From NCBI GenBank assembly GCA_030324005.1, contig JARDVH010000121.1:51044824-51108823 (forward strand): a DNA stretch of 64,000 bases, in the 5' to 3' direction. The translations under genes were made by a program, and so were the position numbers. Numbering within the stretch: position 1 is the stretch's first letter; every line of letters starts with the position of its first letter. The notes under the pieces were generated by a model, which worked only from the letters and a program-made list of their open reading frames with translations, ran no database searches and had not been told where the DNA came from. Below, piece by piece: positions 51 to 62,486 of this stretch. This DNA comes from Negaprion brevirostris (taxonomy: Eukaryota).

Positions 51-264
51 CTGTTTGGGAACACTGAGGGAGAATTTAGCACGGCCAATGAACCCAGCCA
101 GCACATCTTTCAGACTGCAGGAGGAAACCAGAGCACCTGGAGGAAATCCATGCCAACACAGGGAAAATGTGCTGATTCCACCACAGGCAGTGACCCAAGT
201 CAGGAATTGAACCCGGGTCCCTGGCGCTGTGAGGCAGCAGTGCTAATCACTGTGCCACCACGCC
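51..264 (-). mobile_element. V-SINE, type B tail (partial)
   Basis: Reverse complement of tRNA-like head TGGCACAGTGRTTAGCACTGCTGCCTCACAG, V-domain and AAATTCTCCCTCAGTGT. Confidence 0.85.
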
Positions 265-4597: not shown

Positions 4598-4901
4598 GGG
4601 TAGCATGGCAGTACAATGGTTAGCACTGCTGTCTCACAGCACCAGAGACCCAGGTTCAATTCCGGCCTCGGGACTGTCTGTGTGGAGTTTACACGTTCTC
4701 CGTATGTCTGCGTGGGTTTCCTCTGGGTGCACCTGTTTCCTCCCACAATCTGAAAAACGAGCTGGTTAGGTGTACTGACCATGCTAAATTCTCCCTCAGT
4801 GTACCCTACAGGCGCTGGAGTGTGCGACTAGGGGATTTTCACAGCAACTTCATTGCAGTGTTAATGTAAGCCTACTTGTGACTAATAAATAAACTTTAAC
4901 T
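4598..4901 (+). mobile_element. V-SINE, type B tail
   Basis: Head, V-domain and tail ending CTACTTGTGACTAATAAATAAACTTT. Confidence 0.92.
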
Positions 4902-8346: not shown

Positions 8347-8642
8347 GGGTGACACAGTGGCACAGTGGTTACTATTGGTGCCTCACAGTGCCAGGGATCC
8401 AAATTCAATTCCCACCTCGGGGGGTTGTCTGTGCAGAGTCTGCAAGTTCTCCCTGTGTCTAGGTGGGTTTTCTCTGGTTTCCTCCCACAATCTGAAAGAT
8501 GTGCTGGTTAGGTGTATTGGGCCATGCTAAATTCTCCCTCAGTGTCCCCAAACAGGCACCAGAGTGTGGCGACAATGGGATTTTCACAGAAACTTCATTG
8601 CAGTATTAATGTAAGCCTACTTGTCAAACTAACAAATAAACT
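8347..8642 (+). mobile_element. V-SINE, type B tail
   Basis: Head, V-domain and type B tail. Confidence 0.9.
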
Positions 8643-12811: not shown

Positions 12812-13076
12812 TAGCCTCACAGTTCCAGGGACACGGTTTCAATTGCCGGCTTGGGTCGCTGTCTGTGCGGGATTTACACGTTCTCCCCATGTCTACGTGG
12901 GTTTCCTCTGTGCTCCAGTTTCCTCCCACAGCCTGAAAGATGTACTGGTTAGGTGCATTGGCCATGCTAAATTCTCCCTCAGTGTACTCGAACAGGCGAC
13001 GGAGTGTGGCAACTAGGAGATTTTCACAGTAACTTCATTGCAGTGTTAATGTAAGCCTACTTGTGACGCTACTTTA
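12812..13076 (+). mobile_element. V-SINE, type B tail
   Basis: Truncated head, V-domain and type B tail. Confidence 0.88.
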
Positions 13077-17137: not shown

Positions 17138-17646
17138 TTTGATTTGATTTATTATTGTCACATGTATTAACAGACAGTGAAAAGTATTGTTTCTTGTGCT
17201 ATAGACAGACAAAGTCTATAATGGAGGAAATGAGAGGGTGCAGAATGTAGTGTTACAGTCATAGCTAAGGTTTAGAGAAACATCAACTTACTGTGAAGTA
17301 GGTCCATTCAAAAATCTGATGGCAGCAGGGAAGAAGCGTTTCTTGAGACGGTTAGTACGTGACCTCAGACTTTTGTATCTTTTTTCCGACAGAAGAAGGT
17401 GGAAGAGAGAACGTCCAGAATGTGTGGGGTCCTTCACTATATTGGCTGCTCTGCCGAGGCAGCAGGAAATGTAGACAGAGTCAATGGATGGGAGGCTGGT
17501 TTGTGTGATGGATTGGGCTACATTTATGACCTTTTGTAGTTCCTTGCAATCTTGGGCAGAGCAGGAACTATACCAAGCTGTGATACAACCAGAAAGAATG
17601 CTTTCTATGGTGCATCTGTAAAAGTTGGTGAGAGTTGTAGCTGACA
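17138..17646 (-). mobile_element. Rex1/Babar-type LINE 3' end
   Basis: (ATTTG)n end; same sequence as 19116-19746 and 57362-57722; runs into an N gap. Confidence 0.8.
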
Positions 17647-19115: not shown

Positions 19116-19746
19116 TGATTTGATTTATTATTGTCACATCTATTAGTATACAGTGAAAAGTATTGTTTCTTGCACACTATACAGACAAAGCATACTGTTC
19201 ATAGAGAAGAAAGGAGGGAATGCAGAATGTAGTCTTACAGTTATAGCTCGGGTGTAGAGAAAACTTAGTGTGAGGTAGGTCCATTCAAAAATCTGATGGC
19301 AGCAGGGAAGAAGCTGTTCTTGAGTAGGTTGGTATGTGACTTCGGACTTCTGTATCTTTTTCCCGATAGAAGAAGGTGGAAGAGAGAACGTTTGGACTGC
19401 ATGCGGTTCTTAATTATGTTGGCTGCTTTTCTGAGGCAGTGGGAAGTGTAGACAGCGTCAATGAATGAGAGACTGGTTTACACAATGGATTAGCCTACAT
19501 TCATGACACTTTGTAGTTTCTTGCAGACTTGGGCAGAGCAGGAGACATATCAAGCTGTGATACAACCAGAAAGAATGCTTTCTATGGTGCATCTGTAAAA
19601 GTTGGTGAGAGTTGTAGCTGACACGCCAAAGTTTCTTTAGTCTTCTGAGAAAGTAGAAAAGTTGGTGGGCTTTCTTAACTATAGTGTCAGCATGGGGGGA
19701 ACAGGACAGGTTGTTAGTGATCTGGACACCTAAAAACTTGAAGCTG
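19116..19746 (-). mobile_element. Rex1/Babar-type LINE 3' end
   Basis: Minus strand encodes the C-terminal ...NLLKNSFFPAAIRFLN motif, followed by the TGTGACAATAATAAATCAAATC tail. Confidence 0.82.
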
Positions 19747-19749
19747 ACA

Positions 19750-19983
19750 ACAATCCTACGCCATACCTATCCCTTTAAGTCCACATATTTATCCTACTAA
19801 TCCCCTTGCAACAAAGGAGCAATTTAACATGTGGACTGTGGAAGGAAGCCAGAGCAACCAGAGGAAATCCGCACAGACATGGGAAGAACATGCAAACTCC
19901 CACAGATAGTCATCCGAGGCCAGAATTGAACCTGGGTCCCTGGTGCTGTGAGGTAGTAGTGTTAATTACTGCGCCACCATGTC
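19750..19983 (-). mobile_element. HE1-type V-SINE fragment
   Basis: Reverse head and V-domain. Confidence 0.75.
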
Positions 19984-25683: not shown

Positions 25684-25838
25684 CCCTCCACACCCTAGCT
25701 ATGACTGTACACTACACTCTGCACTCTCTCATTTCCTTCTCTATCTATGGTACACTTAGTCTGTATAGCGCACAAGAAACCATATTTTTCACTGTATGTT
25801 AATACATGTGACAATAATAAATCAAATCAAATCAAATC
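25684..25838 (+). mobile_element. Rex1/Babar-type LINE tail
   Basis: TTTTCACTGTATGTTAATACATGTGACAATAATA(AATCA)n; reverse complement of the 17138/19116 ends. Confidence 0.85.
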
Positions 25839-42670: not shown

Positions 42671-42958
42671 GGCATAATGGCACAGTGGTTAGCACTGCTG
42701 CCTCACAGTGCTAGGGACCCGGGTTTGATTCCCTGCTTGGGTCACTGCCTGTGTGGAGCCAGCATGTTCTCCCCATGTCTGCATGGGTTTCCTCCGAGTG
42801 CTGTTTTACAGTCTGAAAGGTGTACTGGTTAGATGCGTTGGCTGTGCTAAATTCTCCCTTAGTGTACCCGAACAGACGCCGGAGAGTGGCAACTAGGGGA
42901 TTTTCACTGTAACTTCACTGCAGTGTTCATGTAAGCCCACTTGTGACACTAATAAACT
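42671..42958 (+). mobile_element. V-SINE, type B tail
   Basis: Head, V-domain and type B tail. Confidence 0.9.
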
Positions 42959-42969
42959 AATCTTGTAAG

Positions 42970-43299: not shown

Positions 43300-43593
43300 T
43301 TAAGTTTCAAGTTTATTTATTAATGTCACAAGCAGGCTTGCATTAACACTGCAATGAAGTTACTGTGAAAATCCCCTGGTCACCACACTCTGGTGCCTGT
43401 TCAGGTACACTGAGAGACAATTTCACATAGACAATGCCCCTAACCAACACGTCTTTTGGACCGCGGGAGGAAACTGGAGCACCCGGAGGAAACACGCAGA
43501 CACAGGGAGAATGTGCAGAGTCCGCATACGCAGTGACCCTAGCCGGGAATTAAACCCAGGTCCCTGGCGCTGTGAGGTAGCAGTGCTATCCAC
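43300..43593 (-). mobile_element. V-SINE, type B tail
   Basis: Reverse type B tail and V-domain. Confidence 0.9.
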
Positions 43594-45480: not shown

Positions 45481-45973
45481 GTAACACAGTGGTACAGTGG
45501 TTCGCACTGTTGTCTCACAGTGACAGGGACCCAGGTTTGATTCCCAGCTTGGGTCACTGGCAGTGCAGAGTTTGCTCGTTTCCCCGCGTCTGCGCGGGTT
45601 TCCTCTGGGTCCTCCGGTTCCTCCCACAGTCCAAAAGACCGGTTAGTTAGGTGCATTGGACACGCTAAATTCTCCCTCTGTGCACCCGAATAAGCAGCAA
45701 AGTGTGGAGACTAGGGGATTTTCACAGTAACTTCATTACAGTGTTAATGTAAGCCTACTTGTGACCCTAATAAATANNNNNNNNNNNNNNNNNNNNNNNN
45801 NNNNNNNNNNNNNNNNNNNNNNNNNNNNNNNNNNNNNNNNNNNNNNNNNNNNNNNNNNNNNNNNNNNNNNNNNNNNGCACCCGAATAAGCAGCAACGTGT
45901 GGAGACTAGGGGATTTTCACAGTAACTTCATTACAGTGTTAATGTAAGCCTACTTGTGACCCTAATAAATAAA
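45481..45973 (+). mobile_element. V-SINE, type B tail (tail duplicated across a gap)
   Basis: Full copy 45481-45776; tail repeated at 45877-45973. Confidence 0.88.
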
Positions 45974-46079
45974 CAACCTCGGCATGAACATAAAACAAAT
46001 GGCAGTTTGTAACGATGGGTGGGATTTTCTGGCCCTTTCCACCAGTGGGACCTTCCCGTCCTACCAAGGTCGTGCTCCC

Positions 46080-49952: not shown

Positions 49953-50262
49953 TTTAAAGTTTATTTATTAGTCACAAGTCGGCTTACATTAACACTGCAA
50001 TGAAGTTACTGTGAAAATCCCCTAGTCNNNNNNNNNNTCCAGTGCCTGTTTGGGTACACTGAGGGAGAATTTAGCATGGCCAGTGCACCTAACCAGCACA
50101 TCTTTCACACTGTGGGAGGAAACTGGAGCACCTGGAGGAAACCCACGCAGACATGGGGAGAACATGCAGACTCCACACAGACAGTGATCCGAGGCGGGAA
50201 TCAAACCGAAGTCCTTGGTGCTGTGAGGCAGCAGTGCTAACCACTGTGCTAGCGTGCTACCC
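49953..50262 (-). mobile_element. V-SINE, type B tail
   Basis: Full reverse copy. Confidence 0.92.
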
Positions 50263-52373: not shown

Positions 52374-52900
52374 TGGTTGTCACTGCTGCCTCACAGTGCC
52401 AGGGATCTGGGTGCTATTCCCAGCTTGGGTCACTGTCTGCGGAGTCTGCACGTTCTCCCCGTNNNNNNNNNNNNNNNNNNNNNNNNNNNNNNNNNNNNNN
52501 NNNNNNNNNNNNNNNNNNNNNNNNNNNNNNNNNNNNNNNNNNNNNNNNNNNNNNNNNNNNNNNNNNNNNNNNNNNNNNNNNNNNNNNNNNNNNNNNNNNN
52601 NNNNNNNNNNNNNNNNNNNNNNNNNNNNNNNNNNNNNNNNNNNNNNNNNNNNNNNNNNNNNNNNNNNNNNNNNNNNNNNNNNNNNNNNNNNNNNNNNNNN
52701 NNNNNNNNNNNNNNNNNNNNNNNNNNNNNNNNNNNNNNNNNNNNNNNNNNNNNNNNNNNCACATACAGTCACCCGAGCCCAAAATTGAACCCAGGTTCCT
52801 GGTGCTGTGAGGCAGCAGTGCTAACCACTGTGCCACAATGCTGCCCATTGCAATGTTAATGTAAGCCTATTTGTGACACTGATGAATAAACTTTAAACTT
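52374..52900. mobile_element. V-SINE type B (+) with a nested reverse V-SINE, partly in a gap
   Basis: Plus head 52374-52462; minus head 52760-52845; type B tail 52846-52900. Confidence 0.7.
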
Positions 52901-55551: not shown

Positions 55552-55770
55552 ATTTGATTTATTTTTGTCACATGTATTAACATTCAGTGAAAAGTATTGT
55601 TTCTTGCGCACTGTGCAGACAGAGCATACCATTCATAGAAAAGGAAACAAGAGAGTGCAGAATGTAATGTTACCTTCATAGCTAGTGTGTAAGATCAACT
55701 TAATGCAAGATAAGTCCATTCAAAAGTCTGACAGCAGCAGGGAAGAAGCTGTTCTTGAGTCGGTTGGTAC
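55552..55770 (-). mobile_element. Rex1/Babar-type LINE 3' end
   Basis: TNRLKNSFFPAAVRLLN plus tail. Confidence 0.85.
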
Positions 55771-57361: not shown

Positions 57362-57722
57362 TTTGATTTGACTTATTATTGTCACATGTAACATACAGTG
57401 AAAAGTATTGTTTATTGCACACTATACAAAGCATACTGTTCATAATGAAAGAAATGACAGAGTGCAGAATGTTACAGTCATAGCTAGGGTATAGACAAAG
57501 GTTAACTTAATGCAAGATAAGTCCATTCAAAAGTCTGACAGCAGCAGGGAAGAAGCTGTTCTTGAGTCGGTTGGTATGTGACCTCAGACTTCGATATCTT
57601 TTTCCTGACGGAAGACGGTGGAAGAGGGAATGTCCAGGGTGCATGGAGTCCCTAACTTTGCTGGTTGCTTTGCCGAGGCAGCGGGAAGTGTAGACAGAGT
57701 CAATGGATGGGAGGCTGGTTTT
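57362..57722 (-). mobile_element. Rex1/Babar-type LINE 3' end
   Basis: ORF 57507-57782 LPSIDSVYTSRC...HPGHSLFHRLPSGKRYRSLRSHTNRLKNSFFPAAVRLLN is typical of the Rex1/Babar C-terminus. Confidence 0.88.
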
Positions 57723-60392: not shown

Positions 60393-61497
60393 CAAATATA
60401 CTTGTAGACATAATTGCAGTCTGCGGCCCCAAAACGTCACTCACCCATGAGTTAGAATGTTGAACTCTCACCTTCCCCACGTCATTCCCACTCCCATGTA
60501 GAAAGCGGGTACTGCGCATGTGCCAACTCTGCACGTGCGCATGTTTGCCATTTGCAATTTGCAAGAATTTGTGGGAACGGAACCCCTGTGAAAGGTGAGA
60601 ATCGGCTTTATTCTCCATTCTTATGACTGTGAATAACAGCAGCTGAAACATGCTATCATTTAGTGCCTTAAACATAGCAAAACATCACAAGATGCTCCAG
60701 AGGCATGAAGATATTTTGCCAAAGAAGAGAAGAGTTGTTGGTGTGATTAAAGCTTACACAGTAGGCCAAAGCACCCGGTCTACAGATGTGCGTCAGGACG
60801 TTATCGAAGTCCTAATGTACAGAGTTCCATGGGAACTTCCCAGGATGTTTTAAATTCCATTGGGAAATATCTCTGTTCCCTGGGACCCTCTGCCAATGTC
60901 CCTGAGTTAAGAGTCAGAGACTTCAGACAGCTCCACACCACCTACCTGGATAGTTACACCAGTGGTCGACATTTGGGTAACTAACACAGCTGACGACTGC
61001 CCACTGTCCCCCCCGACTTTCTGACCCAATCGACCTGACTACCCTCTGACCTGACTAGCCCACCCGACCTGGCTCAATTATGCCCTCGATCCAACCCAGT
61101 GACTATCACCTGACCAAGCTACACTCCGAACTGAACTGATGACCCCACGACCAACCACCTTCTCACCCATCTTACCTATCTTAGCCATTCACTCACTAAC
61201 CCATTCGCTCATCCATTCACACACGTTCAGAAGTTGGATATTACCATATCACAGGTTGGGTGCAGTGACTGACAAAGGCCAGATGCCAGAGTTAGAAGAT
61301 CAGCCCCTCCTTTGTAGGGCTGGAGGAGGATACAGAGATTGATAGGGCCAGACTATGATGGAATTTAAAGACAAGTGCAACAATCTAGGGCTTGAGGTGT
61401 TGGGAGACGAGGAGCCACTGTAGGTCAACACAGATGAGATAATAGCTGAATGGAAACTGTTGTGGGTTTGGATAGATAGCACCAGTGGTGTTTTTTT

Positions 61498-61795
61498 TGT
61501 TAATTAGTGTTACAAGTAGGCTTGCATTAACACTGCAGTCAAGTTATTGTGAAAACCCCCTAGTCACCACACTTTGGTACCTGCTCGGGTACATTCAGGG
61601 AAATATAGCATGGCCAATGCACTTAACCAGCATGTCTTCCGGACTGTGGGAGGAAATCAGAGCACCCAGAGGAAACCCACGCAGACATGGGGAGAATGTG
61701 CAGACTCCACATCGACAGTCCCCCCAAGCTGAAAATCAAACCCGGGTTCTTGGCACTGTAAGGCAGCAGTGCTAACCACTGTGCCACCGTGCACC
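61498..61795 (-). mobile_element. V-SINE, type B tail
   Basis: Full reverse copy. Confidence 0.9.
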
Positions 61796-62188: not shown

Positions 62189-62486
62189 GGGTGGCACGGT
62201 GGCACGATGGTTGGCATCGCTGCCTCATAGCGCCAGGGACCTGGGTTTGATTCCAGGCTTGGGTCACTGCCTGCATGGAGTGTGCATGTTCTCTCCATGT
62301 CTGCATGGGTTTCCTCTGTTTCCTCCCACAGTCAGAAAGATGTGGTGGTTAGGTGCATTGGCCATGCTAAATTCTCCCTCAGTGTACCAAACAGGCGCCT
62401 GAGTATGATGACTACGGGGTTTTCACAGTAACTTCATTGCAGTGTTAATCCAAGCCTACTTGTGACACTAACAAATAAACTTTAAA
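62189..62486 (+). mobile_element. V-SINE, type B tail
   Basis: Full copy. Confidence 0.9.

What the first reader, a model, noticed from the sequence alone, without database searches (positions are those of the whole stretch)
4598..4901. V-SINE that appears to have swapped its CR1 tail for a Rex1/Babar LINE stem-loop, with a compensatory base pair
Seen: two SINE families share the same tRNA head and V-domain but diverge after GCTAAATT. Type A ends in a CR1 tail (CTGTAGGGATTCTATG). Type B (51, 4598, 8347, 12812, 42671, 43300, 45481, 49953, 61498, 62189) ends TTTTCACAGTA-ACTTCATTGCAGTGTTAATGTAAGCC-TACTTGTGACACTAATAAAT (consensus of the copies). The Rex1/Babar LINE tail at 25786-25838 reads TTTTCACTGTA-TGTTAA-TACATGTGACAATAATAAAT. 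Both can fold TCAC-W-GTA against TAC-W-(bulged T)-GTGA, with A-T in the SINE and T-A in the LINE at the W position. Known: SINEs borrow the 3' stem-loop of the LINE that mobilises them, and HE1 pairs with the CR1 LINE HER1. Inference: type B is a Rex1-mobilised V-SINE made by tail exchange. I cannot tell whether it has already been described in sharks.
Basis: partly seen in the sequence, partly recalled or inferred. Interest (0 to 1): 0.7.

Follow-up and report, generated by a model that had tools for sequence, protein, structure and literature searches.

The report
Shark V-SINE carrying both Rex1 ends
This abundant short jumping-DNA element of a shark-like genome has the front of a known element family but ends in pieces that match both the first and the last bases of a Rex1 retrotransposon, which likely copied it; I did not find this pairing in the papers searched.

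Summary
Type B is a real, abundant V-SINE (about 120 tails per Mb) that shares a roughly 95% identical head with CR1-tailed type A. Its 3' stem arms match the resident Rex1 LINE end at 10/11 and 18/20 (0 of 5000 shuffles reach the score; best of 63 other LINE 3' regions 24 vs 42.6). New here: the 20 bases ahead of that stem match the extreme 5' end of the same Rex1 family (profile score 56, 400 shuffles at most 24; 200 exact Rex1-flanked matches genome-wide, control 0). Five of six Rex1 5' ends recovered are joined straight to Rex1 3' parts at different junctions. Type B is therefore best read as a V-SINE head fused to a two-ended mini-Rex1, likely mobilised by Rex1; ages overlap (divergence about 0.097 vs 0.065-0.104). 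Weak points: covariation is one fixed pair only, the Rex1-like hairpin is not the favoured fold of the full-length RNA, a 26-nt loop and the terminal repeat are not Rex1-like, and mobilisation is untested. Tail exchange and Rex1-type SINE tails are known; a V-SINE with Rex1 ends and Rex1 as a two-ended donor were not in the papers seen. Repbase and Dfam were not checkable.

The parts
4598..4901 (+). Type B V-SINE, full-length copy
4598..4670 (+). tRNA-derived head; decayed A box about 4609-4619, B box 4653-4663
   Evidence: sequence and majority alignment; box consensus recalled; ARAGORN finds no tRNA gene in the window
4671..4793 (+). V-domain and following stretch shared with type A (borders approximate)
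   Evidence: by-eye match to frog V-SINE consensuses in the supplement of PMC6887750
4811..4829 (+). Match to the extreme 5' end of Rex1 (18 of 20 to the B majority motif in this copy)
4836..4882 (+). Rex1-like 3' stem arms around a 26-nt B-specific inner part
4883..4901 (+). A-rich end and B-specific terminal repeat (differs from the Rex1 pentamer repeat)
25686..25838 (+). 5'-truncated 3' end of the resident Rex1 LINE; stem-loop at 25786-25812
17141..17646 (-). Rex1 3' fragment with ORF end
19117..19745 (-). Rex1 3' fragment abutting a cut-short type A SINE (19746-19981)
55552..55770 (-). Rex1 3' fragment
57365..57721 (-). Rex1 3' fragment
51..259 (-). B-type head and start of linker, tail absent
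8347..8642 (+). Type B copy
12814..13071 (+). Type B copy, both ends shortened
42678..42964 (+). Type B copy (has T at the 5' W position)
43306..43593 (-). Type B copy
45481..45776 (+). Type B copy; its end recurs at 45879-45974 behind a gap
49954..50262 (-). Type B copy
52846..52896 (+). B tail behind an inverted V-SINE head, probably a nested insertion
61496..61792 (-). Type B copy
62189..62485 (+). Type B copy

Best explanation
Type B is a tRNA-headed V-SINE whose last 95 bases hold matches to both the first 20 and the last 45 bases of this genome's Rex1 LINE, and it was likely born by fusion of an HE1-like head to an internally deleted mini-Rex1 and likely copied by Rex1 protein. Shown: the anatomy, both Rex1 matches, internally deleted Rex1 copies in the same genome, overlapping divergence. 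Inferred: Pol III transcription from the A/B boxes with read-through of a four-T run in the 5' stem arm; recognition of the bulged outer stem and A-rich end by Rex1 reverse transcriptase with tolerance for the loop; target-primed insertion with slippage on the terminal repeat; origin from a type A-like ancestor by template switch or by insertion of a mini-Rex1 behind the V-domain.
For: 3' arms 10/11 and 18/20, with two of three mismatches forming one swapped pair; 0 of 5000 shuffles; the best window of the 1.9-kb Rex1 consensus is its 3' end; among 56,222 B-masked genomic windows, 26 of the 31 scoring 30 or more are labelled Rex1 although Rex1 makes up 1,802; 63 other LINE downstream regions score at most 24.0. 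5' match: six resident Rex1 5' ends pick B bases 214-234 with score 56, type A -1.5, 400 shuffles at most 24; best copy 17 of 19, 0 of 3000 shuffles; 200 exact genome matches of the motif between Rex1-specific flanks, control 0; published catshark consensuses ScyCan_Rex1-2 and -3 begin with it (by eye). Five of six 5' ends join Rex1 3' parts at five different junctions, the sixth runs off its locus. Rex1 loop variants differ (inner divergence 0.23) while the stem stays (0.076). Divergence: B 0.097 (67 copies), Rex1 subfamilies 0.065-0.104.
Against: No within-family covariation. In the full-length B consensus an alternative hairpin pairing the 5' motif region with the 3' arm is 3.8 kcal/mol better and the Rex1-like pairs have P about 0.03; P is 0.71-0.87 in shorter contexts, 0.98 in one subfamily, 0.01 in another; folding z-scores are not significant. 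The 26-nt inner part and the terminal repeat are not Rex1-like, and by eye resemble the CR1-Zenon-type tail of bivalve BivaV-SINE2. The shared loop hexamer belongs to the youngest Rex1 subfamily (0.065), younger than B, so it may be chance. A plain majority of the six decayed 5' ends did not align to the motif (score 15); the CpG-aware test was set up afterwards. No clean B-in-Rex1 or Rex1-in-B nesting, no diagnostic target duplications, no B-Rex1 co-location (rho 0.11, p 0.24). No full-length resident Rex1 copy was read from 5' end to ORF.
Confidence: 0.72

Rival explanations
1. The B tail is Rex1-derived, but its donor and mobiliser was another, now rare or extinct Rex1 lineage with a long loop and a different terminal repeat; the resident family is only a relative.
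For: Loop length 26 vs 6, swapped pair and different terminal repeat; rays and catshark carry many Rex1 lineages (supplement rows of PMC13343379).
Against: All chromosome-scale Rex1 hits whose 3' ends were visible belong to one family (part of the output was cut); all 25 B tails without a SINE head that were listed in 1.06 Mb look like truncated, gap-broken or interrupted B copies by eye; the 5' motif matches the resident family closely.
Confidence: 0.15
2. B is moved by a CR1-group LINE other than Rex1 (CR1-Zenon type); the Rex1 pieces are passengers or the tail is a chimera whose inner part and terminal repeat are the true recognition signal.
For: By-eye likeness of B's inner block, 3' arm start and A-rich end to BivaV-SINE2, and an AAACT satellite listed for Zenon-partnered bivalve V-SINEs; the Rex1-like hairpin is not favoured in full-length B.
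Against: The abundant resident Zenon-like LINE has a different tail; the two B-like motifs occur only in B (94 of 94 and 21 of 21 matches); a bivalve-type pattern has 0 matches in the genome; Zenon- and Crack-like ORFs found are mostly single copies on small contigs with unrelated tails. The likeness was not scored.
Confidence: 0.1
3. Both resemblances to Rex1 are chance similarity of short motifs.
For: The matches are short (20, 11 and 20 bases) and the 3' one is AT-rich.
Against: Two separate matches, in Rex1 order, each to a terminus, each beyond all shuffles.
Confidence: 0.02

Closest known systems
HE1 V-SINE / HER1 CR1 LINE of sharks and rays (Ogiwara 1999, 2002; seen only as a table row in PMC3747384 and mentions in PMC4824008)
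   Same: tRNA head plus V-domain in an elasmobranch-like genome; type A with its CR1-type tail fits this description
   Different: Type B has no CR1 tail (score 15.4 vs type A tail) and ends in Rex1 pieces; the HE1 consensus itself could not be compared
Bipartite-LINE SINEs: WALLSI2, SINE2-1_ACar, Bov-tA, CoeSINE4 (Kojima 2018, PMC5786205, passages and section 23)
   Same: RNA-derived head, conserved body, then 5' part plus 3' end of one LINE; proposed origin from an internally deleted LINE
   Different: That paper lists only RTE and Vingi as donors of SINE middles and RTE, Ingi, Vingi, R2 as makers of bipartite LINEs; Rex1 does not occur in its text; B's 5' piece is only about 20 bases and its body is V, not CORE
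SlmI, HpaI, OS-SINE1 with RSg-1 (salmonids); SINE2-5_NV with Rex1-24_NV (table in PMC3747384)
   Same: SINEs that share a 3' end with a Rex1-type LINE (RSg-1 as Rex1 is recalled, not from a call)
   Different: None is listed as a V-SINE; no Rex1 5' piece is mentioned in the passages seen
ScyCan_Rex1-2 and -3 (PMC13343379 supplement, first 400 letters of each row)
   Same: 5' end matches the resident Rex1 5' end and the B linker motif by eye
   Different: Autonomous LINE consensuses; their 3' ends were not visible
BivaV-SINE2 with CR1-14_CGi / CR1-Zenon (PMC4824008, PMC11481361)
   Same: V-SINE with a changed partner LINE, argued from tail likeness and compensatory changes; partial by-eye likeness to B's inner tail
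   Different: Bivalve, Zenon partner, no Rex1-type outer stem or Rex1 5' motif seen

Membership tests
SINE (tRNA-derived) | Short, dispersed, non-coding, multi-copy, with A and B boxes and a simple-repeat end | tested here: met
   about 308 bases, 127 tails in 1.055 Mb called; boxes in the majority alignment; terminal repeat
SINE (tRNA-derived) | Transcribed by Pol III | not testable with these tools
   inferred from the boxes only
SINE (tRNA-derived) | Target-site duplications | tested here: inconclusive
   5 bases or more in 2 of 36 B copies vs 0.043 in shuffled pairs; equally scarce in type A and Rex1
V-SINE | Conserved V-domain behind the head | tested here: met
   by-eye match to frog V-SINE consensuses and the bivalve V core; not scored
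HE1 | 3' tail shared with the CR1 LINE HER1 | tested here: not met
   type B tail vs type A/CR1-type tail scores 15.4, background level; HER1 itself not available
Rex1/Babar (partner LINE) | RT domain, 5'-truncated copies, conserved 3' UTR ending in an oligonucleotide repeat (PMC6274825 section 4) | tested here: met
   PF00078 + PF09004; truncation lengths 28-1890 of a 1894-base consensus; pentamer end
Rex1/Babar (partner LINE) | RT falls in the Rex1 clade | tested here: inconclusive
   no tree with named references; 5' end matches rows classed Rex1 in PMC13343379 (by eye); relatives are fish RT + PF09004 proteins at about 45-63% and one Mustelus protein at 78%, none named Rex1
Rex1/Babar (partner LINE) | AP endonuclease upstream of RT | not tested
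   the consensus reached only 1.9 kb from the 3' end
Bipartite-LINE SINE | Holds 5' part and 3' end of one LINE, in order, behind the head | tested here: met
Bipartite-LINE SINE | Internally deleted LINE copies exist as possible donors | tested here: met
   5 of 6 recovered Rex1 5' ends; none as short as B's cassette; two came from a search for Rex1 3' ends
Stringent SINE/LINE pair | Shared 3' stem-loop with covariation | tested here: inconclusive
   one fixed swapped pair; none within families; fold depends on context
Stringent SINE/LINE pair | Overlapping activity | tested here: met
   K2P without CpG: B 0.094-0.108, Rex1 0.065-0.104; nesting gave no B/Rex1 order
Stringent SINE/LINE pair | Mobilisation in trans by the LINE protein | not testable with these tools
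   needs a cell assay

The most novel reading that the evidence does not exclude
Rex1 needs, or strongly favours, both of its RNA ends: the small hairpin at its 5' terminus (CGCC paired with GGCG around a 6-7 base variable loop, also visible in two ray Rex1 rows) and the bulged 3' stem. Type B would be a 95-base natural minimal substrate that kept both for that reason, and its alternative 5'-3' pairing could be a switch. Rex1 would then join RTE, Ingi, Vingi and R2 as a maker of two-ended elements and a repeated source of elasmobranch SINEs.
Probability: 0.25. Interest if true: 0.7.

Novelty: new variant of a known kind. Interest (0 to 1): 0.5.

Why it matters
It adds a partner clade (Rex1) to V-SINEs and a donor clade to the bipartite route of SINE birth, for which the paper seen lists only RTE and Vingi. 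One genome holds two sister V-SINEs with the same head on different LINE machineries (A on CR1, B likely on Rex1), active over overlapping periods, so a partner switch can be studied directly. B and the Rex1 loop variants predict which RNA features Rex1 reads (outer stem and bulge yes, loop no), which is testable. With an estimated 270,000 copies (120 per Mb times 2.69 Gb times the 83% called fraction of my sample; an extrapolation) it also matters for repeat annotation of shark genomes.

Tried and rejected
Within-family covariation: none. Target-site duplications, flank composition and co-location per 10 kb in 114 bins: no discrimination between A, B and Rex1. Nesting: A in B seen 4 times (L275, L282, L225, L278), B in a V-SINE head once clearly (L126), Rex1 in A (L242, window 19117-19981), no clean B/Rex1 case. 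Twin-priming inversion as the cause of inverted heads beside B tails: rejected, where readable they are type A insertions. A second resident Rex1 family with a B-like tail: not found; divergent Rex1 ORFs lie on small contigs. Resident Zenon-like tail, bivalve-type pattern, Crack/L2/RTE tails: no match. Metagenome scan with a two-arm pattern: 10 loci, none with a Rex1 ORF or V-SINE. Clustering of CR1 3' ends gave no consensus. A read-level comparison of stem positions between organisms was not obtained, so cross-species covariation is open. More resident Rex1 5' flanks could not be read, so the 5' analysis rests on six copies plus pattern counts. Literature: searches showed no V-SINE with Rex1 ends; Ogiwara 2002 was not held, SINEBase supplements and file 1 of PMC4824008 could not be read, and Repbase/Dfam were not available; any of these may hold this family.

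Full report
Observation. The 304-base element at 4598-4901 has 31 further BLAST matches in the window. Alignment of 24 of them shows one head and V-domain followed by two tails. Majority heads of A and B differ at about 10 of 195 positions and stay alike to about base 205. In 1.055 Mb of called sequence (the window, 100 kb beside it, and 110 stretches of 10 kb at round coordinates) there are 127 B tails, 232 A-like tails (some are CR1 ends) and 51 Rex1 ends; without the window and its neighbours the B density is 119 per Mb. Behind 262 readable V-domain ends lay 154 A, 90 B and 18 other sequences, the last mostly interrupted copies by eye. The host is elasmobranch-like: the closest named relative of the LINE protein is a Mustelus protein at 78%.

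The LINE. The stretch at 25686-25838 is a short truncated 3' end. Genome copies extend it into an ORF with RT and PF09004 and end in a pentamer repeat. Searches with PF09004 and with a divergent Rex1-type protein returned, on chromosomes, only this family wherever I read the loci (27 loci, those visible). Its 5' end, found in six loci, matches by eye the first letters of ScyCan_Rex1-2, classed Rex1 in PMC13343379. No tree with named references was built, so the clade rests on that match, on the domain pair (its link to Rex1/Babar is recalled) and on the features in PMC6274825 section 4.

The 3' match. Arms agree at 10 of 11 and 18 of 20; two of the three differences are the A-T / T-A pair. Score 42.6 against 16.3 +/- 3.1, 0 of 5000 shuffles; the type A tail scores 15.4; in 56,222 B-masked windows 26 of 31 top scores are labelled Rex1. 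A two-arm motif matched 133 times in 884 kb: 72 B, 59 Rex1 and 2 further Rex1 ends by eye. Sixty-three downstream regions of other LINE ORFs reached at most 24.0 (not all contain a true tail). Not explained by Rex1: a 26-base inner part (Rex1 has 6) and a different terminal repeat.

Earlier notes of this scan on 5S SINEs with two Rex1 ends (AI notes, leads only) prompted a look at the B linker. Published catshark Rex1 consensuses begin with a motif that matches B bases 217-236 at about 18 of 20 by eye. In this genome a first test with a plain majority of six CpG-decayed 5' ends failed (score 15). A CpG-aware profile of the same six picked B bases 214-234 with score 56; type A scored -1.5, the reverse strand 3, and 400 shuffles at most 24; the best single copy matched 17 of 19 with 0 of 3000 shuffles. 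The degenerate motif has 24,072 exact matches genome-wide and 200 between Rex1-specific flanks, controls 0; a DNA search with one 5' end scored 40 of 1,443 candidates, the 39 other than itself at 86-91%. The six copies share nothing upstream of it by eye, as expected of a terminus. Five of the six run from 70-140 bases of 5' end straight into Rex1 3' sequence at five different points. So B reads head, V-domain, short spacer, Rex1 5' terminus, five bases, Rex1-like 3' end.

Structure. The Rex1 hairpin folds at -7.8 and the B core at -9.3 kcal/mol with the same outer stem and bulge; z-scores are not significant. Rex1 subfamilies vary the loop (four variants) and keep the stem, which suggests loop tolerance (inference). 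Against: within families only 4 (B, 150 tails) and 6 (Rex1, 126 tails) compensatory cells over eight pairs, and in full-length B a hairpin between the 5' motif region and the 3' arm is favoured by 3.8 kcal/mol, leaving the Rex1-like pairs at P about 0.03; context and subfamily move this from 0.01 to 0.98. The T at the 3' W position also fits that alternative fold, so the one swapped pair is weak evidence.

Timing. CpG-free K2P to own majority, unbiased copies: B main group 0.097 (67), other B groups 0.094-0.108 (16), Rex1 loop groups 0.065 (11), 0.097 (4), 0.102 (16), 0.104 (4), A 0.128 (100, subfamilies not resolved). A inserted into B four times and B into a V-SINE head at least once, so A and B overlapped. 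No clean B/Rex1 nesting, no usable target duplications and no B-Rex1 co-location were found. That A-like elements came first is an inference from their greater divergence and from HE1 being listed across sharks and rays.

Mechanism. Most likely (0.72) a mini-Rex1 made by internal deletion was joined behind an HE1-like V-domain, and Pol III transcripts of the fusion were copied by Rex1 protein through the outer stem and A-rich end, as shown for other stringent LINEs (PMC5135761, passages). Rivals: another Rex1 lineage as donor (0.15); a CR1-Zenon-type mover (0.10), since B's inner block and end resemble BivaV-SINE2 by eye, though no such LINE was found here; chance (0.02).

What is known. Tail exchange is established (PMC5499810 part 1 of 6; PMC5804259 and PMC4824008 passages; PMC11481361 passages and supplement rows). 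The table in PMC3747384 (passages) lists V-SINE partners HER1, CR1-3DR/ZfL3, LfR1 and L2, and RSg-1 or Rex1-24_NV for four non-V SINEs; bivalve V-SINEs add CR1-Zenon and Nimb. Kojima 2018 (PMC5786205, passages and section 23) names RTE, Ingi, Vingi and R2 as makers of bipartite LINEs and never mentions Rex1. PMC6887750 (passages, supplement passages), PMC3531059 (passages; supplements unreadable) and PMC13343379 (passages; supplement cells cut at 400 letters, so 3' ends unseen) gave no such family. Nine searches found no V-SINE with Rex1 ends. Ogiwara 1999 and 2002 were not read, and Repbase and Dfam could not be searched; an element this abundant may well have an entry there.

Verdict. Real feature, correct partner clade, better described as a V-SINE built on a two-ended Rex1 cassette. 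New variant of a known kind; interest 0.5.

Noticed in passing
L233:9427-9581, L274, L010, L027, L198: Internally deleted Rex1 copies: 70-140 bases of 5' end joined to the ORF end or 3' UTR, each at a different junction, suggesting a recurrent route rather than one family.
   Followed up: partly
Small contigs of G000, e.g. L151-L164, L181-L184, L300-L343: Dozens of diverse, intact, apparently single-copy LINE ORFs (RTE-, L2-, I-, Tx1-, Zenon- and teleost-Rex1-like, labels by recalled motifs) on small unplaced contigs; likely foreign DNA in the assembly.
   Followed up: no
L165 (G000:C193:99582197-99585856) and L176 (G000:C1:119347924-119351670): Intact long ORFs (987 and 696 aa) on chromosome-scale contigs with no close relative found (L176 searched); recent horizontal transfer or mis-scaffolded foreign DNA.
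   Followed up: partly
L275, L282, L225, L278; window 52374-52896: Type A copies inserted in antisense into type B copies several times; possibly a preferred target, not quantified.
   Followed up: partly
B subfamily (e.g. L077, L078): A shorter B subfamily lacks about 20 bases after the V-domain, shortens the four-T run in the 5' stem arm to three (a possible Pol III stop removed) and is predicted to form the Rex1-like hairpin at P 0.98.
   Followed up: partly
window 45777-45974: The end of the 45481 copy is repeated on both sides of a 100-N gap; probably an assembly overlap.
   Followed up: no
L046 and 33 ends in the unbiased sample: An abundant LINE 3' end unlike CR1 or Rex1, probably the elasmobranch Zenon family of PMC13343379; link to its 5' end not checked.
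   Followed up: partly
L205, L266, L026: Rex1 copies nested in or tandem to other Rex1 copies in the same orientation.
   Followed up: no
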